Assembly (NCBI RefSeq): GCF_009914755.1
Contig: NC_060925.1
DNA from: the human T2T-CHM13v2.0 reference genome, Homo sapiens
Reading direction: 5' to 3' (one strand)
DNA: 64,000 nucleotides
Numbering within the stretch: the first letter of the stretch is position 1; each line of letters starts with the position of its first letter. The translations under genes were made by a program, and so were the position numbers. This document shows, piece after piece, positions 17,652 to 64,000 of the stretch. The notes under the pieces were generated by a model, which was given only the letters and a program-made list of their open reading frames with translations, was not told where the DNA came from and did not search any database.

Positions 17652-18082
<431 letters not shown>

Positions 18083-18639
18083 TTACTCCTGTGGGTAGAT
18101 CAGCCCAGGGACTTGATTTCTGGGTTTTGATAAAGGTGAGTTTGATGCTGATGTAACTTTACATTTCTTGTACAGAAATATGTTTAGTTTTAGCTGAGGA
18201 CCTTCGGTATCATCACTTCCTTCCTGGAATGAGAGGCAGAGGTGATTCTGAGAAAGGGAGGTTTTCTTACCTCAGTACCTTGCACAGTGCCAGCATGCCA
18301 TTAAGCCTCAAAATGTCTCTTCTGTATTTGCTGAGTGCTTAACCTTTGCTAAGCAAAATCACAGCTACTCCTTAATTTACTAGGTGTCATTAACATTAAC
18401 CTTATTTTACAGACAGGTGAACCAAGGCCCAGAGATGTTAAGTGACTTTCAGATTACAAAGCATGTGAGTGTGAGTGTCAGGATCATCATTTCAAATTCC
18501 TAACTTCAGTTTTGCTAATATCTGAGTATCCTTAGGATAATACTTCCTAGGTGCTGGGCATGGAGCAAAGTGTTTTTAGCCATTATCCTTCTTCATTCTT
18601 ATCATACCCTGATATAGGGCACATGTCACCCTCTGTGTG

Positions 18640-19058
18640 ATCTCCTCAACCTCTTCTCAGGTGACTGTCTCACCATGGGGCAGCTCCTAAAATACATCAT
18701 GATCTTTCCCACCCCAGAGCCTTTGTGCTTGCTGTCCCTCCCACATTGAATGTTCCTCCCTTGTGCTTCACACAGCCAGAGTCTCACCATCCTTCAAGTT
18801 TCACCTTAAGTCTTGTCTATAACAAGAGGCCTTCCAAGATCACCTGTTTAAGCATGTCCTTCCCTTTAGTGTCTCTCATAGCACTGTCTTTATTCTCAGC
18901 ACTCATTGCTGTCTGTGATTATTTTACTAAATTGTCTGTCTATTATCTGTACTTCCCATAGAATGAAAGGGCAGAATGATTTCGGTCTCTGTTCTCTGAG
19001 ATGTCTGGAAGAGAGCCCTGCACATGTAGGTCCTCAATGAAAATGTTTTAAACAGAAT
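18640..19058 (+). mobile_element. Degraded L2 3' end
   Basis: Loose match to the L2 terminal motif (GCACATGTAGGTCCTCAATGAAAATGTTT). Confidence 0.5.
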
Positions 19059-21997
19059 AAAGGCCATTTATGAAAAACCTGTGGCTAGCAAACTGATTGG
19101 GGGAAAAGCTGAAAGTGTGTCCTTTAAGAACCACAACAAGACAAGGATGCTGTATCTCACCATTCATATTCAACATAGTATTGGAAGCACTTGCTAGAGC
19201 AATTATGCAAAAGTAGAAATAAGGGACAGCTAAATTAGAAAGGAAGAAGTGAAATTGTCCTTGTTTACAGAGGACATAATATTATATACTGAAAAAACCT
19301 GGCAACCCCCTTTGGGTCCCCTCCCATTTTATGGGAGCTCTGTTTTCACTCTATTAAATCTTGCAACTGCACACTCTTCTGGTCTATGTTTGTTATGGCT
19401 TGAGCTGAGCTATCGCTTGCCATTCACCACGTCTGTTTTCCCGCAGACCTGCCACTGACTTCCATCCCTCCAGATCCAGCAGGGTGTCAGTGGCACTCCT
19501 GATCCAGCAAGGCACCCATTGCCACTCCCAAGTGGGCTAAAGGCTGGCCATTGTTCCTGCACAGTTAAGGGCCCAGGTTCATCCTAATCAAGCTGAATAC
19601 TAGTCGCTGGGTTCCTCGGTTCTCTTCCATGTCCCATGGCTTCTGATAGAGCTATAACACTCACTACATGGCCCAATATTCCATTCCTTGGAATCTGTGA
19701 AGCCAAGAACCCCAGGTCAGAGAAAAAGAGGCTTGTCACCATCTTGGAAGTGGCCCACCATCATCTTGGGAGCTCTAAGAACAAGGACCCCCCCCCCAAT
19801 AACATTTTGGCCACCACGAAGGCACGTCCAAAGTGGTGAGTAATATTGGACCACTTTCTCTTGCTACTCTGTCCTATCCTTCCTTAGAATTGGAGGAAAA
19901 TACCAGGTGCCTGTCAGCTGGTTAAAAACGATTAGTGTGGCCACTGGACTTAAGACTCAGGTGTGAGGCTGTCTGGGAAAGGGCTTTCTAACAACCCCAG
20001 CCTTTTATGGGTTGGGAGTGTTGGTCTGCCTGGAACCAGCTTCTGCTTTCAATATTCCTGGGGAAGTCAAGGGTGGACTAGAGGCAGAAAGCTGACGTCC
20101 CAAACTGCTGGCATTAGCCAGTTGAGATCATGGCACAGCCAGAAGTCTCTACTCAGCATTCACTTATGCATACGCCCCTACCTTTCCTTCTGACCCATAC
20201 CTCCTGGGTCCTGACCATGACTTTCTTGAAAGTGTAGCCCCAAAATTCTCCTTACTTCTGAATTGACTTCCTTTGATCCCTGCCTCCTAGATACTAATGC
20301 TTCAGGCTTTCACTTCCTCTCCCAAGTATTAGAACAGGTTGTATCTCCAAAGGGATCTAAGGAAGCTCTATGCTGCATCCTCAGGCCCCTAGGCTATGAA
20401 CCCAGGGAGTCTTGTCCCCGGTGTCCCTCCCAATTTAGGCATACAGCTCTCCACATGGGCAGTTATGTGGGACCCGTTCCCCACCACCCTTGCCAGGGCC
20501 TTAGAACTGATAACCTAGTACTCTAACAACTGGAATTGGGTCTACAACAACATACTAGATCAAGATGAAAGCAAATTGAGTAAATAAAAGGGAGGCACAT
20601 ATTCCTATAGTGGCAAATGGGGGCAACCAGCGAACATCCTTCCATTCTGTTTCCAAAATGCATCTACAAAGACAGAAAGGAGAAAGAAAGAGAGAAAGAG
20701 AAAGATAGAAGTAGTAAAGAAAAAACAGTGTACCCTGTTTCTTTAAAAGCCAGGGTTAATTTAAAACCTATAATTGATGATTTAAGGTTTTCTCCATGAC
20801 CCTATAACACTCCAATACCACTTTGTTGTCATTGTAAACAAGGGCATAGCCCAAAAGCACTGAGGCCACTGACAACCAGTGGCCTTCCTATCAAAAATCC
20901 TTAACCCAGGAACCTGCCAATGGCCCAGATGCATTCAATCTTTTGCGGCAACTACTTTCCTAACAGAAGAAAGTAGAAAATTAGCCTTTAGAGGAAACCT
21001 CATTGTGAGCCCACCTCACCAGTTCAGAACTATCCTAAGTTAAAAAAGCAAAAAGGGTAGGTTACTAACTCAAAAATCTGAAAGTATGGAGCTATTCTGT
21101 TAAAAAATGATAATTTAACATTAACCACTGAAAATTCCCTTCCCCCAGCAGATTTTCTGACAGGGGATTTAAATCTTAATTACCATACAAAGGTTCAACC
21201 GCACCTAGGAGGAACTCCCTTCAGGACAGGACAACAGATGGTTCCTCCCAGGTGATTGAGAAAAAAACACAATGGGTATTCAATAATTGAAGGAAACTCC
21301 TGTAGATGCAGAGTTAAGAAAATTGCCTAATAACTGGTCTGCTCAAACGTGTGAGCTGTTTGCACTCAGCCAAGCCTTAAAGTACTTACAGAATCAAAAA
21401 GCTCTATCTCAATCCTGACTCAAAGTTTACCCGCATCCTCTCTGAAATGAATTTGCATAAGAGAGAACTGTTGCTTGTAGGAATGCATCTTGATGGGGCA
21501 TCTGGGTTATTAGGAAATACTCAGGAACCCAGTGCAACTCTAGAACTCACCCCTGAGTGCAATGGCAATGTCAGGCATGCTGGTAAAGGACCACTAGAAT
21601 CCAGCAGCCTGGACCCCTTTCTTTGTGGTCAAGAAAGGTGGGAAAACTGGTTCAGGACTGCCCCATTGGTGAACGTAACTAATCCAATAAGCAGAGGTCC
21701 ACTGGTGGCTATGCACCCTAGAAAGGAACTCATCTCTGAGTGCAACAGCAGTGTTGGATATGCTGGTAAAGGACCTCTAGAACCCAGCAGCCCCATCCCC
21801 TTTCTTAGTGGTCAGGAAAGGCAGGAAAATAGGTGGAGGACTGCTACATCATTGAAAGTAACTAATCTGAAAAGCAGAGGTCCTTGAGTGGTTACGCACC
21901 TGAAAGGAATAAGCATTAGCTCCATAGAGGATGCTCTAGGTCTAATGCTCATCAGAAAATGACTAAGAGTGCTGGCATCCCTATGTTTTATTTTCAA

Positions 21998-23075
21998 ATG
22001 GGAAACATTTCCCCCAAGGCAAAAATGCCCCTAAGATGTATTCTGGACAATTATGCCCAGTCAGAGTGTACATACCTTTTTCCCTGTCAGACTTGAAGCA
22101 AATTAAAATAGACCTAGGTAAATTCTCAGCTAAGACTGATAGATATTTTGATGTTTTACAAGTGTTAGGACAATCCTTTCATCTGACATGGAGAGATATC
22201 ATGTTACTGCTAGATCAGACACTAACCCCAAATAAGAGAATTGCCGCCATAACTGCAGCCTGAGAGTTTGGTCATCTCTTGTATCTCAGTCAGGTCAATG
22301 ATAGGATGACAACAGAGGAAAGAGAACAATTCCCCACAGGCCTGCATGCAGTTCCCCGTGTAGACACTCACTGGGACACAGAATCGGATCATGGAGATTG
22401 GTGCCACAGATATTTGCTAACTTGGGTGATACAAGGACTAAGGAAAAGTAGGAGATAGCCCATAAATTATTCAATTATGTCCACTGTAACACAGAGAAAG
22501 GAAGAAAATCCTACTGCCTTTCTGCAGAAACTAAGGGAGGCATTGAGGAAGCATACCTCTCTGTCACCTGACTCTATTGAAGGCTAACTAATCTTAAAGG
22601 ATAAGTTTATCACTCAGTCAGCTGCAGACATTAGAAAAAAACTTCAAAAGTCCGCCTTAGGCCCAGAGCAAAACTTAGTTACTGGGTTCATAGCCCCATG
22701 ACCCATGGCTTCTAATAGAGCTATTAGAACTATTGAACTTGGCAACCTTGTTTTTTTTATAATAGAGATCAGGAGGAGCAGGCACAATGGGAGAAACAAG
22801 AGAAGAAAAAGGCCACGGCTTTAGTCATGGCCCTCAGGCAAGCAGACTTTGGAGGCTCTGGAACACAGAAAGCTGGGCAAATTGAATGCCTAATAGGGCT
22901 TGCTTCCAGTGTGGTCTACAAGGACACTTTAAAAAAGATTGCCTGAATAGAAATAAGCCACCACCTCGTCCATGCCCCTTATGTCAAGGGAATCACTGGA
23001 AGGCCCACTGTCCCAGGAGATGAAGGTCCTCTGAGTCAGAAGCCACTAACCAGGTGATCCAGCAGAAGGACTGAG
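21998..23075 (+). pseudogene. HERV-W gag, disrupted
   Basis: ATG GGA AAC start; CFQCGLQGHFKKDC and CPLCQGNHWKAHC zinc knuckles near 22900-23010; stops, frameshifts, internal deletion. Confidence 0.85.
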
Positions 23076-25677
23076 GATGCCCAGGGTAAGCACCAGCCCA
23101 TGCCATCACCCTCACAGTGCCTTGGGTATGCTTGATCATTGAGGGCCAGGGGGTTAACTGTCTCCTGGACACTGGTGCAGCCTTCTCAGTCTTACTCTCC
23201 TGTCCTAGACAACTGTCCTCCAGATCTGTCACTATCCAAGGGGTCCTAGGACAGCCAATCACTAGATACTTCTCCCAGCCACTAAGTTGTGACTGGAGAC
23301 ATTTACTCTTTTGACATGCTTTTCTAGTTATGCCTGAAAGCCCCACTTCCTTGTTAGGAGGAGACATTCTAGCAAAAGCAGGGGCCATTATACACCTGAA
23401 CATAGGAGAAGGAACACTCATTTGTTGTCCCCTGCTTGAGGAAGGAATTAATCCTGAAGTCTGGGCAACAGAAGGACAATATGGATGAGCAAAGAATGCC
23501 TGCCCTGTTCAAGTTAAACTAAAGGATTCCACCTCCTTTCCCTACCAAAGGCAGTACCCCCTTAGACCCGAGGCCTAGCAAGGGCTCCAAAGGATTGTTA
23601 AGGACCTAAAAGCCCAAGGCCTAGTAAAAACATGCAATAGCCACTGCAGTACTCCAATTTTAGGAGTACAGAAACCCAACGGGCAGTGGAGGCTAGTGCA
23701 AGATCTCAGGATTATCAATGAGGCCGTTGTCCCTCTACACCCAGCTGTACCTAACCCTTATACTCTGCTTTCCCAAATACCAGAGGAAGCAGAGTGGTTT
23801 ACAGTCCTGGACCTTAAGGATGTCTTTTTCTGCATCCCTGTACATCCTGACTCTCAATTCTTGTTTGCCTTTGAAGATCCTTCAAACCCAACATCTCAAC
23901 TCACCTGGATTGTTTTACCCCAAGGGTTCAGGGATAGCCCCCATCTATTTGGCCAGGCACTAGCTCAAGACTTGAGCCAGTTCTCATACCTGGACACTCC
24001 TCTCCTTCAGCACATGGATGATTTACTTTTAGCTGCCCTTTCAGAAACCTTGTGCCATCAAGCCACCCAAGCATTCTTTAATTTCCTCTCCACCTGTGCT
24101 ATAAGGTTTCCAAACAAAAGGATCAGCTCTGCTCACAGTAGGTTAAATACTTAGTGCTAAAATTATCCAAAGGCACCAGGGCCCTCAGTGAGGAACATAT
24201 CCAGCCTATCCTGGCTTTTCCTCATCCCAAAACCGTAAAGCAACTAAGAGCGTTCCTTGGCATAACAGGCTTCTGCTGAATATAGATTCCCTGGTACAGC
24301 AAAATAGCCAGATCATTATATACACTAATTAAGGAAACTCAGAAAGGCAATACCCATTTAGTAAGATGGACACCTGAAGCAGAAGTGACTTTCCAGGCCC
24401 TAAAGAAGGCCCTAACCTAAGCTCCAGTGTTAAGCTTGCCAACGTGGCAAGACTTTTCTTTATATGTCACAGAAAAAACAGGAATAGCTCTAGGAGTCCT
24501 TACACAGGTCTGACGGACCAGCTTGCAACCTGTGACATACCTGAGTAAGGAAATTGATGTAGTGGCAAAGGGTTGGCCTCATCGTTTATGGGTAGTGGCA
24601 GCAGTAGCAGTATTAGTATCTGAAGCAGTTAAAATGATACAGGGAAGAGATCTTACTGTGTGAACATCTCAAGATGTGAATGGCATACTCACTGCTAAAG
24701 GAGACTTGTGGATGTCAGACAACCATTTGCTTAAATATCAGCATCTATTACTTGAAGGGCCAGTGCTGCGACTGCGCCCTTGTGCAACTCTTAATCCAGC
24801 CACATTTCTTCCAGACAATGAAGAAAAAATAAAACATAACTGTCAACAAGTAACTGCTCAAACCTACACCACTCAAGGGGACCTTCTAGAGGTTCCCTTG
24901 ACTGATCATGATCTCAACTTGTATGCTGATGGAAATTCCTTTGTAGAAAAAGGACTTTGAAAAGTGGGGTATGCAGTGGTCAGTGATAATGGAATACTTG
25001 AAAATAATCCCCTCACTCCAGGAAGAAGCGCTTAGCTGGAAGAACGAATAGCTCTCACTCAGGCAATAGAATTAGGAGAAGGAAAAAGGGTAAATATATA
25101 TACAGACTCTAAGTATGCTTAGCTAGTCCTCCATGCCCACACAGCAATATGGAGAGAAAGGAAATTCCTGACTTCCAAAGGAACACCCATCAAACATCAG
25201 GAAGCCATCAGGAGATTATTATCGGCTGTACAGAAACCTAAAGAGGTGGCAATCTTATGCTGCCGGGGTCATCAGAAAGGAAAAGAAAGGGAAATAGAAG
25301 GGAACTGCCAAACGGATATCAAAGCCAAAATAGCTGCAAGGTAGGACCCTCCATTAGAAATACTTATAGAAGGACCCCTAGTATGGGGTAATCCCCTCTG
25401 GGAAACCAAGCCCCAGTACTCAGCAGGAGAAATAGAATGGGGAAACTCATGAGGACATAGTTTCCTCTCCTCAGGATGGCTAGGCACCAAAGAAGGAAAA
25501 ATACTTTTGCCTGCAGCTAACCAATGGAAATGACTTAAAACCCTTCACCAAACCTTTCATTTAGGCATTGATAGTACCCATCAGCAGGCCAAATTATTAT
25601 CTACTGGACCAGACCTTTTCAAAACTTTCGAGCAGATAGTCAGGGCCTGTAAAATGTGCCAAAGAAATAATCCCCTG
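23076..25677 (+). pseudogene. HERV-W pro-pol, disrupted and truncated early in integrase
   Basis: Protease LLDTGA; RT LDLKD, LPQGFRDSP and degenerate HMDD (24011-24022); RNase H YADG and YTDSKYA; many stops. Confidence 0.88.
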
Positions 25678-25700
25678 CACTGCAGGCCATACATTTCAAT

Positions 25701-25935
25701 CCCTGTATCTTTAACCTCCTTGTTAAGTTTATCTCTTCCAGAATCAAAGCTGTAAAACTACAAATCATTCTTCAAATGGAGCCCCAGATGCAGTCCATGA
25801 CTAAGATCTACTGTGGACCCCTGGACTGGCCTGCTAGCTCATGCTAGCACCCCTACTGACATTGACAGCACCCCTCCTGAGGAAATCTCAACTGCATGAC
25901 CCCTACTATGCCCCAGTTCAGCAGGAAGCAGTTAG
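25701..25935 (+). pseudogene. HERV-W env C-terminal remnant
   Basis: PCIFNLLVKFISSRIKAVKLQIILQMEPQMQSMTKIY, syncytin-1-like cytoplasmic tail, followed by the polypurine tract at 25981-25993. Confidence 0.85.
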
Positions 25936-28802
25936 AATGGTCATCGGCCAACCTCCCCAACAGCACTTGGGTTTTCCTGTTGAGAAAGGGGACTGAGAGA
26001 CAGGACTAGCTGGATTTCCTAGGCTGACTAAGAATCCCTAAGCCTAGCTGGGAAGGTGACCACATCCACCTTTAAACACGGGGCTTGCAACTTAGCTCAC
26101 ACCCAACCAATTGGGCAGTAAAGAGAGCTCACTAAAATGCTAATTAGGCTAAAACAGGAGGCAAAGAAGTAGCCAATCATCTATTGCCTGAGAGCACAGC
26201 AGGAGGGACAATGATCAGGATATAAACCCAGTATTCGAGCTGGCAATGGCAATCCCCTTTGGGTCCCCTCCCATTTTATGGGAGCTCTGTTTTCACTCTA
26301 TTAAATCTTGCAACTGCAAAAAGAAAAAAAAAAAGAGAGAAAAAGAAAAAAAAGAGAAAAAACCCAAATGCTCTACCAAAAAACAAAAAACCTGTTACAA
26401 CCAATAAACAAATTCAGTGAAGTTGCACAATACAAATCAAAATACAAAACCTGTAGCATTTATATACACGAATCATAAACTAGTTGAAAATAAAACTAAG
26501 AAAGGAATCCCGTTTAAAATAGTTACAAAATATACCTAAAAATAAATTTAACCAAGGAGGTGAAAAATATGTATACTGAGAACTATAGAACATTGATAAA
26601 AGAAATTAAAGAAGACACATATAAAAATGGAAAGGCACCCCATGTTCATGAACTTGAACAATTAATATTGTTAAAATAAGCATACTGCACAAAGCAATAT
26701 ACAGGGTCAATACAATCCTTATCAAAATACCAGCGACATTCTTCACAGAAATAGAAAAAAATTCAAACATTCATAGAGAACCACAAAAGACCCCAATAGT
26801 CAAAGCAATGCTGAGAAAAAGAATAAAACTGGAGGCATCACGCTACCAGACTTCAAAATATATACAAAGCTATAATAACCAAAACAGAATAGTCCTGGGA
26901 TAAAAAAGACGTAGAACAATGCAAGAGAATAGAGAACACAGAAATTAATTTACATATCCATTGTCAGCTGATTTTTGACAAAGGTGCCAAGAATAGTCAT
27001 TGGGAAAGTACAGTCTCTTTAATAAACAGTGCTGGGAAAACTGGATATCCATAAGTAGCTGAATGAAACTAGACCCCTATTTCTCACCCCTATTTCTCAT
27101 GCAAGAACCAACTCAAAATGGATTAATGACATAAATTTAAGACCCTGAAACCATAAAACTACTAGAATAAAATGGGGGGAAAATGCTTCAGGACATTGGT
27201 CTGGGAAAAAATTTTATGAATAACACCTCAAAAGCAATGGCAACCAAAGGAAAAATGAACAAATGAGATTATATCAAACTAAGAAGTTTCTGCATATCAA
27301 GGAAAATAATCAATAAAGTGAAAAGATAGCCAGGAGAAAAGATTTGCAAACTACTAATCAGACAGCAGATTAATATCCACAGTATACAAGAAACTCAAAC
27401 ATCTCAACTCAGAAAAAAATCTGATTAAAAATGAGCAAATGATCTGAACAGATATTTCTCAAAAGAGGACATACAAATGGTCAACAGGTGTATGAACATA
27501 ATGCTCAACATCACTAATCATCAAGGAAATGTAAATCAAAAGCACAATGATATATCATATCCCAGTTAGGATGATTGTTATCAAAAAGACAAAATGGCAA
27601 CAACAACAAAAACAACACTAGGAAGAATGCCAAAAAAGGAAACTCATATACACTGTTGGTGGGAATGTACAGTAGTACAACCACTGGAGAATGACATGGA
27701 GGTTTCTCAAAAACCTACAAAGAGAACTCACACGTGATCCAGCAATTTTCCTGCTGGGTATTTATCAAAAGGAAAGAAAAGGAAGGAACATCAGTGTACT
27801 GAAAGGATATCTGTACCTTCATGTTTATTGCAGCATGATTCACAAGAATCAACATGTGAAATCAACCCAGTGTTCAACAACAGATGACTGGATGAAGAAA
27901 ATGTAATATATACACACAATGGACTACTGTTTAGCCATAAAAAAATAAAATGCTGTCATTGATGGCAACATGGAAAGAACTGGATGACATTATATTAATT
28001 GAAATAAGTCAGGAAAAGAAACTGCATGTTGTCACCCTTATGCAGAGGCTAAAAATAGTTGATGTCATAGTTGTAAAAGGTTAGTAGAGTCTGCAGAGGT
28101 TAGTAGAGTCTGGGAAGGGAGGTGTAGTGAGAGATTTTTTTAAAGGACACAAAATTATAGCTAGATAGGAGGAATAAGTTTTCATGGGTATAGCACTGTA
28201 GGATGACTATAGCTAACAACAATATATGTTTTCAAATAGAAGAGAGCATATTGAGTGTTCCTAACACAAAGAAATGACAAATGTTTGAGATGATGGCTAT
28301 GCTAATTGCCAATGGTCGCTATACACTGTATGTATGAAAACATCAAAAAATACCTCTAAATATGTACAATTATTATGTGTCAATTTGAAAAATATTTTTT
28401 AAATGTGTTGAATGATACAAGGGTGGAATAGAGATAATTTCTCTATTGCACAACAAGCAACTATTACTTTTATAAAGAAAATGCTTTAATGTGGACAAGA
28501 AAGTGCTTTCTGGCTGCAGTGCAGTAGAGAGTTGGTGGCAGGTGTGAGGTGGAAGCAAGTTGGCTAGTTTGGAGGTTGTTGAGCTAACCCCAGTGTAAGA
28601 AGAGGGTGGCTTGGACTTAGAACAGTGGGTGTGAGGCTGGAGTGGGCACTGAAACCAGAGATGTTTAGGAGAGGGAGGTACAGGAGTGGGAGGGAAGCTC
28701 CCACAGACTGCCTGGGCAGTCTCCTCCCCTGCCCTCCCAGAGACTTCGGGCTTTAGTGGTGATACTGGATTCCTAAGTGGCCTTGGCCTTCTGTTATTTC
28801 AG

Positions 28803-29167
28803 ATCCAGCAGATGGGGAGACTGAACAAAGTGGTATCCTGGGCCCACCAGTTTTTCTACACTCACCCACTCTGGTTTGAACCGTTCACTGGCTTCCAGAA
28901 CATTTGAGCCCAACTATGTCAAAGCTGTGTGTAGCCACAGGGGTGAGGTGTTCTTGGGAGAGCTGCTCTTCCTGAGAACAAAGGGCTCAGGCTATGATGT
29001 GGGGAGGAGGCCTGGACCTGTGTCCTATGCCTGGGCAGCTGAAGTTCCCACCCTGCTTATCAAGGTGCCTCCTCTGGGAACCCCCTAGTCTCTATTTGAC
29101 CCAACCAACTTCTTCACTTGCAGAACCTCAAGCCCTAATATGTATGACTTCTTCCTCCAGTGGATTG
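28803..29167 (+). pseudogene. CYP4B1-like pseudogene fragment, exon 2 (28803-28942) and exon 3 (29124-29167)
   Basis: [34 protein letters not shown]/fs/EPNYVKAVCSHR and PQA/fs/NMYDFFLQWIG versus recalled CYP4B1 [47 protein letters not shown] and DPKAPDVYDFFLQWIG; all four splice sites intact; 140 and 44 bp versus 142 and 45 bp for CYP4A11 exons 2 and 3 in this window. Confidence 0.88.
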
Positions 29168-29504
29168 GTGAGTAAGCACCTGCCTTTCTTGCCTTGCCCA
29201 CCCCAGACCCTTGGTGCTGGATGACCTCTGCCCTGCCCTACTTAGTTGGTTATCCCATCAAACAGACAACCTGGCCTCTTTGTGCCTGTCTTAGGTTCAG
29301 TTGCTTTTTGGGGAGTCAGAGAAGGGGAGAGGAGAGCTTCTGGCTGGCTGGCAGGGGACATGGACCCAGGCACTTTCTCTTGCCAGGTTGTCTTCTACCC
29401 TGGATAGGCATCTTTCCCACTGGTCATGTTTCTCTGCTAAATCCCTGATTAAGACACATTTTGGTCCAAAGACTGGTACTAAAGAGACTGAATCTGAAGT
29501 ATGA

Positions 29505-29876
<372 letters not shown>

Positions 29877-30000
29877 TAATCTGACTAGTTAAAAAGTAAC
29901 CAATTACTGTTTTCAGTGGTAAAGAGAACACTGGTAGTCCATGGCAAAGAAGTTAAAAACGTTGAAAAAAGATTAGACGAATGGCTAACTAGAATAACCA

Positions 30001-34369: not shown

Positions 34370-34785
34370 GGGGATGTGTATAGATGCCAAATTGACAAGG
34401 TATGAAATGTGTTGTTTAATTTTACATGTTAACTTGGACAGGCTGTAATACCCAGTTATTCAATTAAATGCTATTCCAGATGTTGTGAAGAGATTTTGTG
34501 GTTGTAGTTAACATCTACAATCAGTTGACTTCAAGAAAAAGAGATAACTCTTGATAATTTATGTAGACTTAATTCAATCACTAATAGGCCTGTAGAGCAA
34601 AGCTCTAGCAGCTGAAAAAGTGGAAGAAAAGAGATTCTCCCTAGAGCCCCTCAACACCTTGGATTTGGAGCAAGAAAATCCAATTCAAATGTGAGACCTC
34701 CAGACATTTAAGACTATAAATTTCTGCTGTTTTAAGGCACTGACGTTGTGGTAGTTAATTACAGCACCAATAGGAAACTCATACA
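34370..34785 (+). mobile_element. ERVL/MaLR LTR remnants (MLT2-like then MLT1-like)
   Basis: GCCAAATTGACAAGG then TGTGTTGTTTAATTTTACATGTTAACTTG; terminal TTACAGCACCAATAGGAAACTCATACA. Confidence 0.5.
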
Positions 34786-35084
34786 AAAGCAGAAAAGCAG
34801 GCAGAAGGAATAAGAAAGAAATGGGGGCAGACAGGCTGGAGGGCAGGCAGGAGATTGGTTGCTGGATGGACAGTCTGTGATGCAGGTAGGCAGGAGAGAG
34901 GTAGAGCAGCAGATACAGAGCCTAGGGAAAGGTGAGAGAAAGAAGGGCAGACAACATGGAGTACAGAAGGGAGGATAGCAGGTAGATGGGAAGAAGGCAG
35001 GTGGGCCGATAGAAAGCAGGATGTGGGCAGACAGGCAGGAGACAGGAGCAGGGGTGAGGAAGACAGGGTGGCAGGTGGAGGCCC

Positions 35085-35280
35085 TCAGAGCTGGTCCTTG
35101 TCCCCACAATGGTTAGGGACCCTCCTGAGATGCAGGTGGATTCCACTTTTGAACTTCAGCAAAATTCATGGTATGCCGACCGGGATCCTGGTGGGATCAG
35201 GCAGCAGCTCAAAGCGGAGCAGGGTCAGGGCCATGGCCACCTTTAGCTCATTCATGGCAAATTTTTTCCCAATGCAGGTC
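35085..35280 (-). pseudogene. CYP4A26P: CYP4A last-exon (exon 12) pseudogene with heme Cys and an in-frame stop
   Basis: cag|G then [63 protein letters not shown]; 196 bp, exactly the length missing from CYP4A11 here; TGA at 35166-35168; CYP4A-like pyrimidine-rich 3'UTR at about 34790-35084. Symbol assigned from memory of cluster order. Confidence 0.88.
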
Positions 35281-36394
35281 CTGAGCCAGGCAGACAGTGA
35301 ATTGATAAGAGGCCTCAGTCCCCATTATGAGCTGGAAATTCATGAATGGTTAAAGGGTTAATCAATGGTTTGTTCACTCTTCCACAGTGTGTGGTTCTGC
35401 AGTGTGGAAGCCAAGTTCAGGTCACTGTAGGGTGAGGGTGGGCCACACTCTCAGGTTTTCCCCATGTAGAGGGATGCCCAGGGACTAGGATCCTTAGGAA
35501 GGGGCCCAGATGGGTGGGCAGGGGAGTCAGAAGGGCACTAGAAATTTTTCTGAAGGGGCACTTTGTGGATGGATGGTCCTCAGCTGCTGCCTCACTTGCT
35601 TCCCAGTCTAGGGGCCAGGCTTCTGCCTCCCCTTACTCCTTCATTACCCATGCCTGTAGCCTTATAATTCTACTCCAGAAATGTCCCTCCTTGTTGTCCA
35701 ACAATCTTCTTGCCTGGACTCTCTGGCGTCCCTGCTTCCCCTTTCTCCACACTGAAGCCACATCCCAGCTTAGACCCTCCCATGCTCTTCATCACAGCTG
35801 GGCAGCATCCTAATGCCCCAGCTGTCAGCCAGCCCTCCATGGACTGTTGCCTCGCCCACCTCTTACCTGTGCAGCCCATGTCCTTGTCCCATACATGTAG
35901 AGATGGCTGAGAACATTCTCCTTCCACCACTGCCTGTAACATCCTCAAGGCTATGGCCAGGGACCTGCCTCTCACCTTCTGCTGGCTGTGCCTCTCCCTC
36001 CCCAGTACCCCAAGGCAGCTTTTTCCCTTATCCATGAACAGTCACAGTCCAGTGCCTAGGATAGCACCATGAACACTCAACGAGGCACTCAGTGATTGAG
36101 TGAGTGAGTGAGTGAGTGAGTGAAAGGATGGATGAGGGAGCAATGTTTGTCTGAAGCACAGGATGTGTTTCTATATAACACGTTTTGTCCTTGACTGTAC
36201 TTAGAGGCAAGAGCAGTGCCTTGTATCTTTGTTTTCCCATCATGGTGTATGGGACTTTACCCTCAGACACAGGCTTAATAGATACTGTTATATTTAAATG
36301 ACATTACTTGGGTTTTGAAAATGAATGAAATAGAATGGAATACAGTGAGAGTCAGTATTAGTTCTGAGCTCGAATTTGTGCTGCTGAATACTCT

Positions 36395-36811
36395 TGGTAT
36401 GGTTTCGCTGTTGGTCCCCTCCAAATCTCATGTTGAAATGTGATTCCATTTTGGAGATGGGTTGGGTGGGAGTTGATTGGATCATGGGGGCAGATCCCTC
36501 ATTATGGTTTAGCACTATACCACTGGTGATCAGTGAGTGAGTGCTCAGTTTGTTCACAGGAGATCTGGTTCTTTAAAAGAGTCTGGGACTTCCCTGCACC
36601 CGCTCTCTTGCTCCTGTTCCCACCACGTGACATGCTGGCTCCCCTTCGCCTTTGCCGTGAGTGAAAACTTACTGAGGCCCTCACCAGAAGCAAATGCTGG
36701 CACTTCATGTCTTGTACATCCTGATGAACCATGAGTAAAATAAATATCTTTTCTTTATAAATTACCCTGTCTCAGATAATCCTTTATAGCAATGCAAGAG
36801 TGGTCTAATGG
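36395..36811 (+). mobile_element. MST-type MaLR solo LTR
   Basis: TGGTATGGTTT...CCAAATCTCATGTTGAAATGTGAT...TTCTTTATAAATTACCC...TTTATAGCAATGCAAG. Confidence 0.8.
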
Positions 36812-37772
36812 AACTCGTCCTGTCCTCTAGTGGCAGCAAACCAATTGGCAGCCAATATTTTGGAGGAAGTACTCATCCTGGGATAAACCAATGCTGAGAA
36901 AGGACTTTCTGGAAGAACAATTTGCTTAAAACCTGTTCTGGGAAAGTGAATTCATCATTGGAAGGATTCTCATAAATTACTTTTTCTAAAAAACTTATTT
37001 CTACTATTTACATTGTTTTTGGCATTCATATTTCTCAGGACGATTCCTGCAGTCTTTGAAGATTTCCACAGAAGCAATTATAGAGTGTACCTGTCCAGTT
37101 CAACAGCTATATTATGTGTCTTCTGTATTTCACATACGAGGAGCATTTAAAGGCTATGTAGCATATCCTAAAAAGGCCTTTCCCCACAGTCAGTTTATTG
37201 TCATTTTTATGTTTTTGCTAATGATGTGCTAAGTGAAATATAGGACTATGGTACAGAGATTCTACTGGGTGTACAGAACTTGCCAAATGGAAATGGAGAT
37301 GTAATTATATGAACATTACTATGTAGTGAAAATTTTGTTGGGCAAGATAACCAAGTGTGTGAGACAACACACATCGGTTAAAACTTTTTGCAAAGGACTT
37401 TGTTAACCTTTCATTTGTATGACTCCAAAAGTAAGACTAGCAAGGTGTCTGAATTCTAAACATAGGCAAAGACTTCAATGATTCAACTCTATGTAGACTG
37501 GTGAATTAAGTCAAAAGGTGGTGTGCTGCATTGGGAGTATGTGAGGAGAGAGAGAAATCAACTCCTTAATATTTTTGAAAATTGAGAAAAACAAACACCT
37601 GAAGTTGAATTTATTATGTACTATCTAATTCTGACAAGTCATATTTCTAAAGTGAAGAAAACACTAGGATACAGTGAAATTTGGAAGACCCACTGACAGT
37701 AAATGCTGGCTGGCCATTGGGAAACAGGAGAAGGAGCAATGACTCCATGGTGTTCTCTGAAATGCCACCTTT

Positions 37773-37933
37773 CTTTAGTGCAAGAGACATTTACACAAGG
37801 TCGTTTTCTTACAAACACCAACATTCAAGGACAAAACTGAAGATGCCACGTATGAACATAGGGGCCCAGAGACTCTGCCTCCTTCCCTACTCCCATTACC
37901 ATACAGGAAGACTCACCTTGATCCTATTGAGAA
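37773..37933 (-). pseudogene. CYP4A exon 11 stub (17 bp, FSIGSR) with donor site and start of intron 11
   Basis: 37773-37933 aligns with window 1-186 (e.g. CTGAAGATGCCAC.TATGAACAT and CTCACCTTGATCCT..TGAGAA). Confidence 0.85.
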
Positions 37934-61756: not shown

Positions 61757-61779
61757 ATGCCCACCATTCCCTTAGTGCT

Positions 61780-61909
61780 GGCAGTGCCTGTGCAGTTAGG
61801 GCTGGGCTGCCTTCAATAGTAACAGAAGCAGGCTCAGCAGTGAGGCTCCTTGGAGGAGCCCTGAGACACCATCTGGGAGTCTGTTGGGGTTCAGCACAGA
61901 GACACTCAT
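61780..61909 (-). pseudogene. CYP4A43P: CYP4A exon-1 pseudogene, 3'-truncated, stop at codon 38
   Basis: [40 protein letters not shown] versus CYP4A11 [41 protein letters not shown]; TAA at 61796-61798. Symbol assigned from memory of cluster order. Confidence 0.88.
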
Positions 61910-64000
61910 GCCGCAGCACCTGCTGGATCACTGAGTGCCCCTGTCAGTCCCTGACTGCCCCTGACTATCCCTGACCACCTCTGACAAGTCCTGTGAGATC
62001 CCCTGTCTACTTGTGGGGAAGGTAAAGTGGGAAGGAAGATCTTGGACCCCAGTGTCCAGAATTGATTGATTGTGCAGGATCCACCTGGGGAAATAGCAAG
62101 AGGAAAGCTTCGTGAGCTGTCCATAGTAATGGCCATGCACACACCCACATTCCCCTGTCCATATCACTCAAAAATATTCAACAAACACCTACTATGTGCC
62201 AGGCAGTATGCCAGATGGGGGGCACAGCTGTATAGAAACAGAAATGAACTGTGACTTTAGGAATTTATAGTCTAATTTACTGAATGTTCAAAACATGTGG
62301 CTGCTTTTATTATTACCTGGATTTCAGTAATGAGAAAATGATTACAGAGGAGTAGAAACTTCTGTTAAAAATAAAACACCCACTGAGAGTCAAAGATGGA
62401 TTAGACTCTTTCTCTACTCCAATACTCCCTGTCCCAGGTGCCTCTGAAATATTACCTGGGGCTGGCCCTGTCCACCCTTCAGTCATCGCCCAAGGTGATG
62501 GTGCTGGTGGATGGAGCACTGGACTTGGACTCAGGAGCCTCAAGCCTCAGGCTCACTATATATGTTGATAGAAACTTAAAGTCTCTGAGCCTCAATTTTT
62601 TTCTGTTGTAAGGTGGGAGCATAATCTTTATGCTACGTACCTAATAGATTTAAGTCATTCTTTCATTCAGCAAATGTTTCTTGAGCTCATAATTTAGAGG
62701 CTAAAGGCAGAAAACTAAAACTGTTCAATAAAATATCATAAGGCTTTACTAGGGAAGTGAAATATCCATCCAGGAAAGGAAAAATCTAAAAAGGAAGAAT
62801 GAGGTCTTGAAGAGTAATAGGAGTTAACCGGGTAGAGAGTCCTAGGTAGAGGGACAAGCACCGAGAAAATCATGGAGATCACAGATAGAGGAGCAAGGGA
62901 TGGGACATTTTATCTTCAAGTTCTGCACTCTCACTTTTTTCATGATTTATTTTCTCTAAGATCAAATTCAATGTCCAGAGTTCAGAGAGTAAGACACAAC
63001 AGATATTTCTTGAAAAATTCCTCGGAAGTTTTAGAAGCCAGCTCTCACTGGGATCACAAGTTTCCTCCTGACCTGCTCTTTCACCCACCTTAAGTCTTAC
63101 TCCCATCACTTTCCCCTTTGTGCCCCTGCCTTGTGACAAGAAATTCATTATAAAACTCATAGGGCCAGAGTTCTTTTCATTCTCCTCTAAGTCCTGGATG
63201 CCATGCAAAACCAACGGCAGAAGGCCATGCAACAACGTACACCCCATTTCAGCTGCCTTTCGTTTAGTTCTGTTGCTCCTTTTCCTCACTACATCATCCG
63301 GACACTGACACTTTTCATGCTGGGCTCAGCACCTGGTTTTTATTCACCCCCTGAGATACAGCAGCAGAAAGAGGTGTAGAGTCATAGTGCCTGTCTGTGA
63401 AACCTGGTTTTGGCTGTTTCTGTCTTTGGGTACTCATTTCTTAAAACAGTTGAGTTCATAATGTGGTAATATACAACATGTAGCGGGCACTGGCTATGTT
63501 CTAGGCATTGAACAAACAACTTTACATACTTTCTATCACAACAACTCTACGAAACTGTTTCTTAAAAAGAAATCTGATATTGTACATATAGAAACTAAGG
63601 CATGAAGAGGGCAGCTGCAACACTAGTGTCCCCCTGTTGGTAAGAGGTACAGCCAGGATTCTAACCCAGGCAGTCTGGCTCAGGAGACTTTGCTGTTCAC
63701 CATCCATGTAAAGGAGATAATGATTAGGTTGAGCATCCAGGCCAGGTGGCAGCTCCTAAACATTCCAGGTGACATTTCATGTTTGCCATGTTTCTTCCAG
63801 TGTTTCCAAGTAGCAGGATGAGGTGTCAGGTTATCAACTACACATATTGACATAAATGCAAGCAAGCCTCTCTATTCGGGGTGGTTTCTGTGTGAAAGTG
63901 AATGGCAAAACTTGGGGCTAGGAGTAACATAGTCATTGAAAATGATGTTTATGGAGAATGTTTAATGATATGAATAAGAGTATAACAAAGCAATAAAAGC
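61910..64000 (-). other. Ancient duplicate of the CYP4A11 promoter and upstream region
   Basis: 61910-62290 aligns with 8843-9195; about 62605-64000 aligns with about 15530-17019 (e.g. GTTGGTAAGAGGTACAGCCAGGATT and GATGTTTATGGAGAATGTTTAATGATATGA identical). Confidence 0.9.

What the first reader, a model, noticed from the sequence alone, without database searches (positions are those of the whole stretch)
28803..29167. Hidden CYP4B1-like pseudogene (exons 2-3), possibly unannotated
Seen: two exons with CYP4 exon 2/3 sizes minus 2 and 1 bp, correct phases, a 181-bp intron and intact splice sites. Exon 2 matches recalled CYP4B1 at about 31 of 47 residues ([9 protein letters not shown], HPLWF); exon 3 contains YDFFLQWIG. 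Both are far closer to CYP4B1 than to CYP4A11 exons 2-3 in this window. The first frameshift (about 28905) gives an immediate TGA. Human CYP4B is usually described as a single-member subfamily, and I recall only CYP4A and CYP4Z pseudogenes in this cluster, so this may be an undescribed second CYP4B locus.
Basis: partly seen in the sequence, partly recalled or inferred. Interest (0 to 1): 0.9.

Follow-up and report, generated by a model that had tools for sequence, protein, structure and literature searches.

The report
CYP4B1-derived two-exon pseudogene relic
A decayed 1.4-kb copy of exons 2-3 of the human CYP4B1 gene lies between CYP4A11 and CYP4X1, and its old splice donor now ends an upstream alternative exon of CYP4X1; it is a dead gene fragment that matters mainly for annotation.

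Summary
Window 28803-28942 and 29124-29167 (+ strand) are copies of CYP4B1 exons 2 and 3, 140 and 44 bp against 142 and 45. A 181-bp intron separates them, and all four splice sites are intact. The copy has two frameshifts and an immediate TGA. The only other match in the T2T genome is CYP4B1 itself, 150 kb upstream. That match is 78-79% identical and runs through the introns, so this is an unprocessed genomic duplicate. It is not related to CYP4A, 4X or 4Z (exon 2: 81% against 50-59%). The duplicate is a 1.42-kb block (18621-19053 plus 28401-29387), split by a later L1 insertion with a 13-bp target-site duplication. No other CYP4B1 exon has a second copy in the window or the genome. Divergence (K2P 0.245) equals that of the neighbouring CYP4A relics (CYP4A26P, 43P, 27P), which suggests one old duplication of a 4B-4A unit. 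No CYP4B pseudogene appears in the hub's RefSeq table, in a 2016 list of 26 human CYP4 pseudogenes, or in my paper searches. RefSeq does already annotate 28775-29167 as an exon of alternative CYP4X1 transcripts, ending at the relic's exon-3 donor. This is an ordinary, probably unnamed, solo-exon pseudogene.

The parts
18621..19053 (+). Upstream part of the duplicated block, copied from the 3' part of CYP4B1 intron 1
   Evidence: It is 83% identical over 441 columns to G000:C1:46687367-46687804. The genome holds only itself, CYP4B1, and a 48-bp match on C12.
19041..19053 (+). Left copy of the 13-bp target-site duplication of the L1 insertion
   Evidence: The same CYP4B1 bases (46687792-46687804) align to both 19041-19053 and 28401-28413.
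19054..28400 (+). Later insertion that splits the relic: a 5'-truncated old L1 (+) carrying a roughly 7.3-kb nested insertion (19300-26577)
   Evidence: 19056-19280 and 26578-27944 map colinearly to positions 2156-1929 and 1692-335 from the 3' end of an L1 copy used as a ruler, at 72% and 69% identity. CYP4B1 has no such insertion at the homologous point.
28401..28413 (+). Right copy of the target-site duplication
28401..28802 (+). Copy of the last ~400 bp of CYP4B1 intron 1
   Evidence: 83.8% identical over 401 aligned bases.
28803..28942 (+). Copy of CYP4B1 exon 2 (140 bp against 142) with a 2-bp deletion after 28904
   Evidence: 81.4% nucleotide identity and 31 of 47 codons with the same residue. 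The only PDB match of its first 34 residues is cytochrome P450 4B1, E 3.1e-7.
28905..28907 (+). In-frame TGA created by the 2-bp deletion
28943..29123 (+). Copy of CYP4B1 intron 2 (181 bp against 190), with GT and AG kept
   Evidence: 78.0% identical over 177 aligned bases.
29124..29167 (+). Copy of CYP4B1 exon 3 (44 bp against 45) with a 1-bp deletion near 29132/29133; the donor gtgagt is intact
   Evidence: 88.6% nucleotide identity and 10 of 15 codons with the same residue.
29168..29387 (+). Copy of the first ~220 bp of CYP4B1 intron 3; homology fades here
   Evidence: 72.4% identical over 199 aligned bases.
28775..29167 (+). RefSeq exon of non-selected CYP4X1 transcripts. It starts 28 bp before the old exon-2 acceptor, keeps the old intron 2, and ends at the old exon-3 donor.
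   Evidence: The hub's gene table gives the exon. The coincidence of its end with the relic's donor was read. Canonical CYP4X1 exon 1 lies at about window 91269.

Best explanation
This is an unprocessed (DNA-level) pseudogene fragment derived from CYP4B1. A block of about 1.42 kb was copied: the end of intron 1, exon 2, intron 2, exon 3 and the start of intron 3. It sits between CYP4A11 and CYP4X1 on the + strand and has since drifted neutrally. It has two frameshifts and an immediate stop. It lacks exons 1 and 4-12, including the haem-binding region, so it cannot encode a P450. A 5'-truncated L1 later inserted into its intron-1 part and pushed the two pieces 9.3 kb apart. All of this is shown by the sequence. 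According to the RefSeq table, its one present use is that its still-good exon-3 splice donor ends an upstream alternative exon (28775-29167) of CYP4X1 transcripts, about 62 kb before the canonical CYP4X1 exon 1. I infer that this exon is a mostly non-coding leader that carries short upstream reading frames.
For: 1. Genome-wide DNA searches with 426 bp and 1020 bp of the relic each return 2 places: the relic itself and G000:C1:46687792-46688674 (78-79% identity, introns included).
2. That place is CYP4B1. Its exon 2 matches PDB cytochrome P450 4B1 at 42 of 47 residues (E 6.7e-25), and its exon 8 matches at E 1.3e-33.
3. Exon-2 nucleotide identity of the relic is 81% to 4B1, 59% to 4X1, 58% to 4Z2P, 50% to 4Z1 and 56% to 4A11. 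With CYP4B1 exon 2 as the protein query, 7 places in the genome match: the relic at 69% (E 6e-9), the next best at 41-47%.
4. Drift looks neutral. K2P is 0.197 in exons (n=184) and 0.245 in non-coding DNA (n=777). Changed codons are 6 synonymous against 19 non-synonymous, and there are two frameshifts.
5. No other CYP4B1 exon is copied. tblastx with 11 CYP4B1 pieces hits, outside the CYP4A11 gene, only the relic and CYP4A26P. CYP4B1 exons 4-12 DNA gives 34 genome matches, none longer than 150 bp apart from itself.
6. The two pieces were once contiguous. The CYP4B1 coordinates abut, there is a 13-bp target-site duplication, and the interior maps to L1.
7. The RefSeq exon ends at 29167, which is the relic's exon-3 donor (hub table).
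Against: Nothing contradicts the identity. The limits are these. No other mammalian genome could be searched, so age and orthology are inferred. A Pfam scan of the short translated pieces found 0 families. The transcript use rests on the hub's annotation table alone; I saw no RNA evidence, and I do not know which downstream exon the donor joins. In the 393-bp exon, reading frames starting at ATG 28994, 28997 and 29027 stay open to the donor in phase 0. The frame from ATG 29140 stays open in phase 1. A coding contribution to a CYP4X1 isoform is therefore not excluded.
Confidence: 0.9

Rival explanations
1. Origin variant A, compatible with the main reading. The relic is what is left of a complete second CYP4B gene. 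That gene was made when a tandem unit of CYP4B(+) followed by CYP4A(-) was duplicated once. The second 4B and second 4A copies then eroded through deletions and repeat insertions.
For: The order and strands fit: CYP4B1(+), CYP4A11(-), 4B relic(+), then a 4A relic(-) consisting of 34695-37933 (exon 12 to the edge of exon 11, CYP4A26P) and 61771-62281 (exon 1, CYP4A43P). The ages fit: the 4A relics differ from CYP4A11 by K2P 0.17-0.28 over six segments, and the 4B relic differs from CYP4B1 by 0.245.
Against: No homology to CYP4B1 exon 1, the rest of intron 1, exons 4-12 or its 3' flank survives in the window. Equal divergence is also expected from separate events of similar age. A second 4A relic (27P/44P, window 67109-70725) needs a further event.
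Confidence: 0.45
2. Origin variant B. Only a short piece of CYP4B1 (about 1.4 kb or a little more) was ever copied here, by a small segmental duplication or a repair event. There was never a second CYP4B gene.
For: Only exons 2-3 with short intron flanks are found in the window. Exons 4-12 have no second copy anywhere in the genome. Homology fades at both ends without an obvious repeat at the edge.
Against: The position, strand and age mirror the CYP4B1-CYP4A11 pair. The flanks are crowded with younger repeats that could have replaced more of a longer copy.
Confidence: 0.4
3. The exon is not merely a leader. Part of it is translated and gives a CYP4X1 isoform a different N-terminus. This could come from the frame open from ATG 28994 to the donor in phase 0, or from ATG 29140 in the old exon-3 frame in phase 1.
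For: These frames are open to the donor. The CYP4X1 exon-2 acceptor is in phase 0. By homology of intron positions, the exon-3 and exon-4 acceptors are in phase 1 (inference).
Against: Two upstream ATGs (28812 and 28916) open short frames that end at 28905 and 28973, which would hinder downstream initiation. The frame from 28994 runs mostly through former intron sequence. I have no transcript structure and no protein evidence.
Confidence: 0.15
4. The two exons belong to a live, unrecognised CYP4B gene, or they derive from CYP4X, 4Z or 4A and not from 4B.
For: The splice sites are intact.
Against: There are two frameshifts and a TGA and no further exons. Intron-level homology exists only to CYP4B1. 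Exon-2 identity to the other subfamilies is 50-59%.
Confidence: 0.01

Closest known systems
Human CYP4B1, exons 2-3 with flanking introns (G000:C1:46687367-46688801)
   Same: The exon order, exon sizes (within 2 and 1 bp), intron phases, splice sites and the intron sequence itself are the same. Identity is 79.5% in non-coding DNA and 83% in exons.
   Different: The relic has two frameshifts, a stop and 19 non-synonymous codon changes. It lacks exons 1 and 4-12. It is split by a 9.3-kb L1-based insertion, and it lies 150 kb downstream of the parent gene.
CYP4A26P, CYP4A43P, CYP4A27P and CYP4A44P (named exon-fragment pseudogenes in the same cluster)
   Same: They are the same kind of object: isolated exons with intron flanks from an old DNA-level duplicate of a cluster gene. 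They show similar divergence from the parent (K2P 0.17-0.28) and lie in the same intergenic stretch between CYP4A11 and CYP4X1.
   Different: They derive from CYP4A, lie on the - strand and have names. The 4B relic has no name in the sources I could see.
Mouse Cyp4b1-ps1 (source of the lncRNA CYP4B1-PS1-001)
   Same: It is a CYP4B1-derived pseudogene inside the mouse chromosome-4 P450 cluster and is transcribed as non-coding RNA (PMC6390257, passages read).
   Different: Orthology is untested, because no mouse sequence was available here. The mouse RNA is described as a separate lncRNA and not as an exon of Cyp4x1.

Membership tests
CYP4B subfamily (P450 nomenclature) | More than 55% amino-acid identity to a subfamily member (rule as quoted in PMC12233900) and a closer match to it than to other subfamilies | tested here: met
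   41 of 62 residues (66%) are identical to human CYP4B1 when read codon by codon. With CYP4B1 exon 2 as the query, the other subfamilies match at 31-47%. Only 62 of roughly 511 positions exist (the total length is from a table in PMC4964396), so the rule is applied to a fragment.
Unprocessed (duplicated) pseudogene | Introns are retained and are homologous to the parent's introns | tested here: met
   The intron-1 part is 83.8% identical, intron 2 is 78.0% and the intron-3 part is 72.4%. The upstream block is 83% identical.
Unprocessed (duplicated) pseudogene | Disabling lesions or missing essential parts | tested here: met
   A 2-bp deletion creates TGA at 28905-28907, and there is a 1-bp deletion near 29132/29133. 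Exons 1 and 4-12 are absent.
Unprocessed (duplicated) pseudogene | No purifying selection on the coding frame | tested here: inconclusive
   Changed codons are 6 synonymous against 19 non-synonymous, and exon K2P (0.197) is close to non-coding K2P (0.245). This fits neutral drift, but 184 bp is too few for a formal test.
Functional cytochrome P450 gene | A complete reading frame including the haem-binding Cys region encoded by the last exons | tested here: not met
   Only exons 2-3 are present, and both are frameshifted.
Alternative 5' exon of CYP4X1 | Transcripts that start here and splice from 29167 into CYP4X1 exons | not testable with these tools
   This rests on the hub's RefSeq table (exon 28775-29167 of non-selected CYP4X1 transcripts). 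The end at the old exon-3 donor was read directly. No RNA data were available.
Orthologue of mouse Cyp4b1-ps1/ps2 | A syntenic position and a shared breakpoint in mouse | not testable with these tools
   No mammalian genome other than the window's own is held. The protein database search returned no relatives.

The most novel reading that the evidence does not exclude
The relic and the neighbouring CYP4A fragments are the remains of a second complete CYP4B-CYP4A gene pair made by one old tandem duplication, in early primates or early placental mammals. That second CYP4B might survive intact in some mammals. In humans its only surviving pieces were taken over as a distal start exon of CYP4X1 62 kb upstream, possibly giving a CYP4X1 isoform a new N-terminus.
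Probability: 0.2. Interest if true: 0.4.

Novelty: new member of a known kind. Interest (0 to 1): 0.2.

Why it matters
The value is mostly for annotation. Human CYP4B would gain a pseudogene fragment beside its single gene, and the CYP4ABXZ cluster map would gain one more relic. The relic also explains where the distal CYP4X1 exon and its splice donor came from: an old P450 exon-3 donor put to new use. Together with the equally old CYP4A fragments, it gives a small handle on the duplication history of the cluster. In practice, primers, probes or short reads aimed at CYP4B1 exons 2-3 have a second target at about 80% identity. It has no consequence for enzyme function.

Tried and rejected
- Pfam scan of the 34-aa and 84-aa translations found 0 families. 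The pieces are too short for the p450 model, so this says nothing.
- I translated CYP4A11 exon 3 in frame 1. That was the wrong phase and was not used. The CYP4A11 protein was rebuilt from the table's coding parts instead.
Sent as residues 45-84 of the 84-aa open frame, it gave 1 candidate and none scored. The database evidently lacks mammalian P450s, so no cross-species test was possible.
- Nelson et al. 2004 (PubMed 15128046), the paper most likely to list cluster fragments, is not held. What I say about its naming of fragments is recalled.
- I ran six paper searches and read passages of PMC4076195, PMC4964396, PMC6390257, PMC4565547, PMC11004013, PMC12233900 and PMC1866355. None mentions a human CYP4B pseudogene. 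'CYP4B1P' in PMC11004013 is an engineered enzyme name. 'CYP4B2' in PMC4565547 is only a cited reference title; the other three papers listed for that term were not opened. The CYP4X1 alternative-exon search returned nothing with CYP4X1. No supplements were opened.
- Rfam on 18000-30000 gave 0 matches.
- Direct repeats of at least 80 nt in 19000-28500 gave only one 175-nt tandem pair and no flanking long repeats around the nested insertion.
- One genome search did not complete because the machine was busy. I repeated it unchanged.

Full report
**What is there.**
Reading the + strand gives two exon-like segments. A polypyrimidine tract and cag end at 28802, and a 140-bp segment runs to 28942, followed by gtgagg. 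A 181-bp spacer ends in ttgcag at 29123. A 44-bp segment then runs to 29167, followed by gtgagt. The first 34 codons from 28803 are open and end in TGA at 28905-28907.

**Whose exons they are.**
- A phmmer search of the 34-residue open piece against all PDB chains, with E up to 10, returned only 2 distinct sequences. Both are named cytochrome P450 4B1 (5t6q/6c94 and 6c93), E 3.1e-7, aligned end to end at chain residues 39-72. That these entries are the rabbit enzyme is my recollection; the tool does not say so.
- The window's own genome is held (T2T, 24 contigs). A 426-bp DNA query gave 2 places: the relic itself and G000:C1:46688173-46688610, at 78% over query bases 2-424, E 5.8e-94.
- A 1020-bp query again gave 2 places, the second at 79% over bases 1-857, E 5.2e-217.
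- The 34-residue protein query likewise gave 2 places, the second at 71% identity, E 4e-9.
- The second place is CYP4B1. Its 142-bp exon translates to a peptide identical to PDB P450 4B1 at 42 of 47 residues (E 6.7e-25). An exon 4 kb downstream matches chain residues 274-335 at E 1.3e-33. It lies about 150 kb upstream of the relic, beyond CYP4Z2P, where I recall CYP4B1 to be.

**It is not related to the other subfamilies.**
With CYP4B1 exon 2 as the protein query, the genome gave 7 places:

| Place | Identity | E-value |
|---|---|---|
| CYP4B1 itself | 100% | 2.9e-27 |
| relic | 69% | 6e-9 |
| CYP4X1 exon 2 | 41% | 3.2e-4 |
| CYP4Z2P | 47% | 0.008 |
| CYP4Z1 | 44% | 0.015 |
| CYP4A11 | 31% | 0.37 |
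| weak place at C1:40.9 Mb | 42% | 0.41 |

- All five cluster genes have a 142-bp exon 2 beginning in phase 0.
- Global nucleotide identity of the relic's exon 2 is 81% to CYP4B1, 59% to 4X1, 58% to 4Z2P, 50% to 4Z1 and 56% to 4A11.
- tblastn with the CYP4A11 protein (454 aa from the 11 coding parts in the window) gave 14 HSPs in the window at E<=10. None lies on the relic.

**Extent and anatomy.**
- blastn of 40 kb around CYP4B1 against the window gave 91 HSPs. Most are L1 or Alu matches hitting several places.
- Two HSPs are single-copy and colinear, and a more sensitive run (5 HSPs) sharpened them. CYP4B1 46687367-46687804 matches window 18621-19053 (83.0%, 441 columns). CYP4B1 46687792-46688801 matches window 28401-29387 (76.6%, 1025 columns).
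- The upstream piece has only CYP4B1 and a 48-bp match elsewhere in the genome (3 places including itself).
- The two CYP4B1 intervals overlap by 13 bases, and those 13 bases occur at both 19041-19053 and 28401-28413. This is a target-site duplication.
- The 9.3 kb between the two pieces begins and ends as one 5'-truncated L1 in + orientation. 19056-19280 and 26578-27944 map to 2156-1929 and 1692-335 bases from the 3' end of an L1 used as a ruler, at only 72% and 69% identity. About 7.3 kb of other DNA is nested inside.
- The duplicate was therefore one block of about 1.42 kb: about 840 bp of intron 1, exon 2, intron 2, exon 3 and about 220 bp of intron 3.

**State of decay (MAFFT).**

| Segment | Identity | Aligned bases |
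|---|---|---|
| intron-1 part | 83.8% | 401 |
| exon 2 | 81.4% | 140 |
| intron 2 | 78.0% | 177 |
| exon 3 | 88.6% | 44 |
| intron-3 part | 72.4% | 199 |

- Pooled K2P is 0.245 for non-coding DNA (n=777) and 0.197 for exons (n=184).
- Exon 2 lost 2 bp after 28904, which creates the TGA. Exon 3 lost 1 bp near 29132/29133.
- Read in the CYP4B1 frame, 41 of 62 codons give the same residue: 31 of 47 in exon 2 and 10 of 15 in exon 3.
- Among changed codons, 6 are synonymous and 19 are non-synonymous. This is the pattern of drift without selection, although the sample is small.

**No other part of a second CYP4B gene.**
- tblastx with 11 pieces covering CYP4B1 exons 1-12 hit, outside the CYP4A11 gene itself, only the relic and 35124-35333. 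The latter is CYP4A26P, an exon-12 copy on the - strand.
- Genome-wide, 6.5 kb holding CYP4B1 exons 4-12 gave 34 matches. Apart from the query itself, none exceeds 150 bp, and those in the cluster are single conserved exons of other CYP4 genes.

**Age and origin (inference).**
- K2P of 0.245 between two copies that both sit on the human lineage is about 0.12 substitutions per site per copy. With mammalian neutral rates as I recall them (1-2 x 10^-9 per site per year), that is roughly 60-100 million years, early primate to early placental.
- There is one weak pointer to the younger end. In the first 34 residues, human CYP4B1 and the PDB enzyme differ at 5 positions. The relic has the human residue at 4, neither residue at 1, and the PDB residue at none.
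- The neighbouring CYP4A fragments are of the same age. Window 34695-37933 and 61771-62281 cover CYP4A26P and CYP4A43P. A second copy at 67109-70725, beyond the window end, covers CYP4A27P and CYP4A44P. These differ from CYP4A11 by K2P 0.17-0.28 over six segments of 310-2166 bases.
- The order CYP4B1(+), CYP4A11(-), 4B relic(+), 4A relic(-) is what a single tandem duplication of a 4B-4A unit would leave. I rate that origin at about 0.45, against about 0.4 for a fragment-only copy.

**What it does now.**
- As a P450 it does nothing.
- The hub's RefSeq table gives 28775-29167 as an exon of non-selected CYP4X1 transcripts and starts the CYP4X1 gene span at 28775. That exon begins 28 bp before the old exon-2 acceptor, retains the old intron 2, and ends exactly at the old exon-3 donor.
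- Canonical CYP4X1 exon 1 lies at about window 91269, exon 2 at 97394-97535, and exon 4 near 100640.
- The 393-bp exon contains 7 ATGs. Those at 28812 and 28916 open frames of 31 and 19 codons that stop at 28905 and 28973. Those at 28994, 28997 and 29027 stay open to the donor in phase 0, as does the one at 29144. The one at 29140 stays open in phase 1; it is a GTG in CYP4B1 and lies in the old exon-3 frame.
- The CYP4X1 exon-2 acceptor is in phase 0. By homology of intron positions, its exon-3 and exon-4 acceptors are in phase 1.
- My reading is a non-coding leader with upstream reading frames. A coding N-terminal extension is possible (0.15). I had no transcript or RNA data to decide.

**Is it known?**
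- The hub table has no pseudogene row here.
- PMC4964396 (passages read) lists the 26 human CYP4 pseudogenes of GRCh38.p6: four CYP4A, twenty-one CYP4F and CYP4Z2P. There is no CYP4B.
- Searches for CYP4B1 or CYP4B pseudogene names found only the mouse Cyp4b1-ps1 lncRNA literature, an engineered enzyme name, and four unrelated CYP4B2 listings, of which only one (a cited reference title in PMC4565547) was opened.
- Two CYP4B1 evolution papers and two P450 birth-death papers mention no human paralogue in the passages I read.
- Nelson 2004 is not held, and GENCODE and HGNC cannot be queried here.
- The relic is therefore probably unnamed as a pseudogene, while the DNA is already annotated as a CYP4X1 exon.

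**Verdict.**
It is an ordinary, old, two-exon unprocessed pseudogene fragment, a new member of a well-known kind. Interest is low (0.2). The only mildly interesting points are the re-use of its splice donor by CYP4X1 and what it suggests about an old 4B-4A unit duplication.

Noticed in passing
window 34695-37933 (- strand gene copy): Homology of the CYP4A26P relic to CYP4A11 runs for about 3.2 kb, at 73-82% BLAST identity. It covers the 3' flank, exon 12, intron 11 and the edge of exon 11, which is far beyond the annotated 34892-35277. The RefSeq silencer 35931-36122 lies inside this old intron-11 copy.
   Followed up: partly
window 61771-62281, and 67109-70725 (beyond the window end; loci L021): CYP4A43P (exon 1 plus promoter copy) may belong to the same eroded CYP4A copy as CYP4A26P. 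In a second copy, the exon-12/intron-11 homology (68092-70327) abuts the exon-2 homology (70323-70725) directly. CYP4A27P and CYP4A44P therefore look like one copy with an internal deletion. All have K2P 0.17-0.28 to CYP4A11.
   Followed up: partly
window 19300-26577: About 7.3 kb is nested inside the old L1 that splits the relic. It is mostly single-copy within the window and has no long flanking direct repeats. I did not identify it.
   Followed up: partly
window 21543-21900: A tandem pair of 175-nt units, 78% identical, with 183-bp spacing.
   Followed up: no
G000:C1:40904768-40904881 (+), outside the window: A weak match (42% over 38 residues, E 0.41) to CYP4B1 exon 2, far from the cluster. 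It is probably chance.
   Followed up: no
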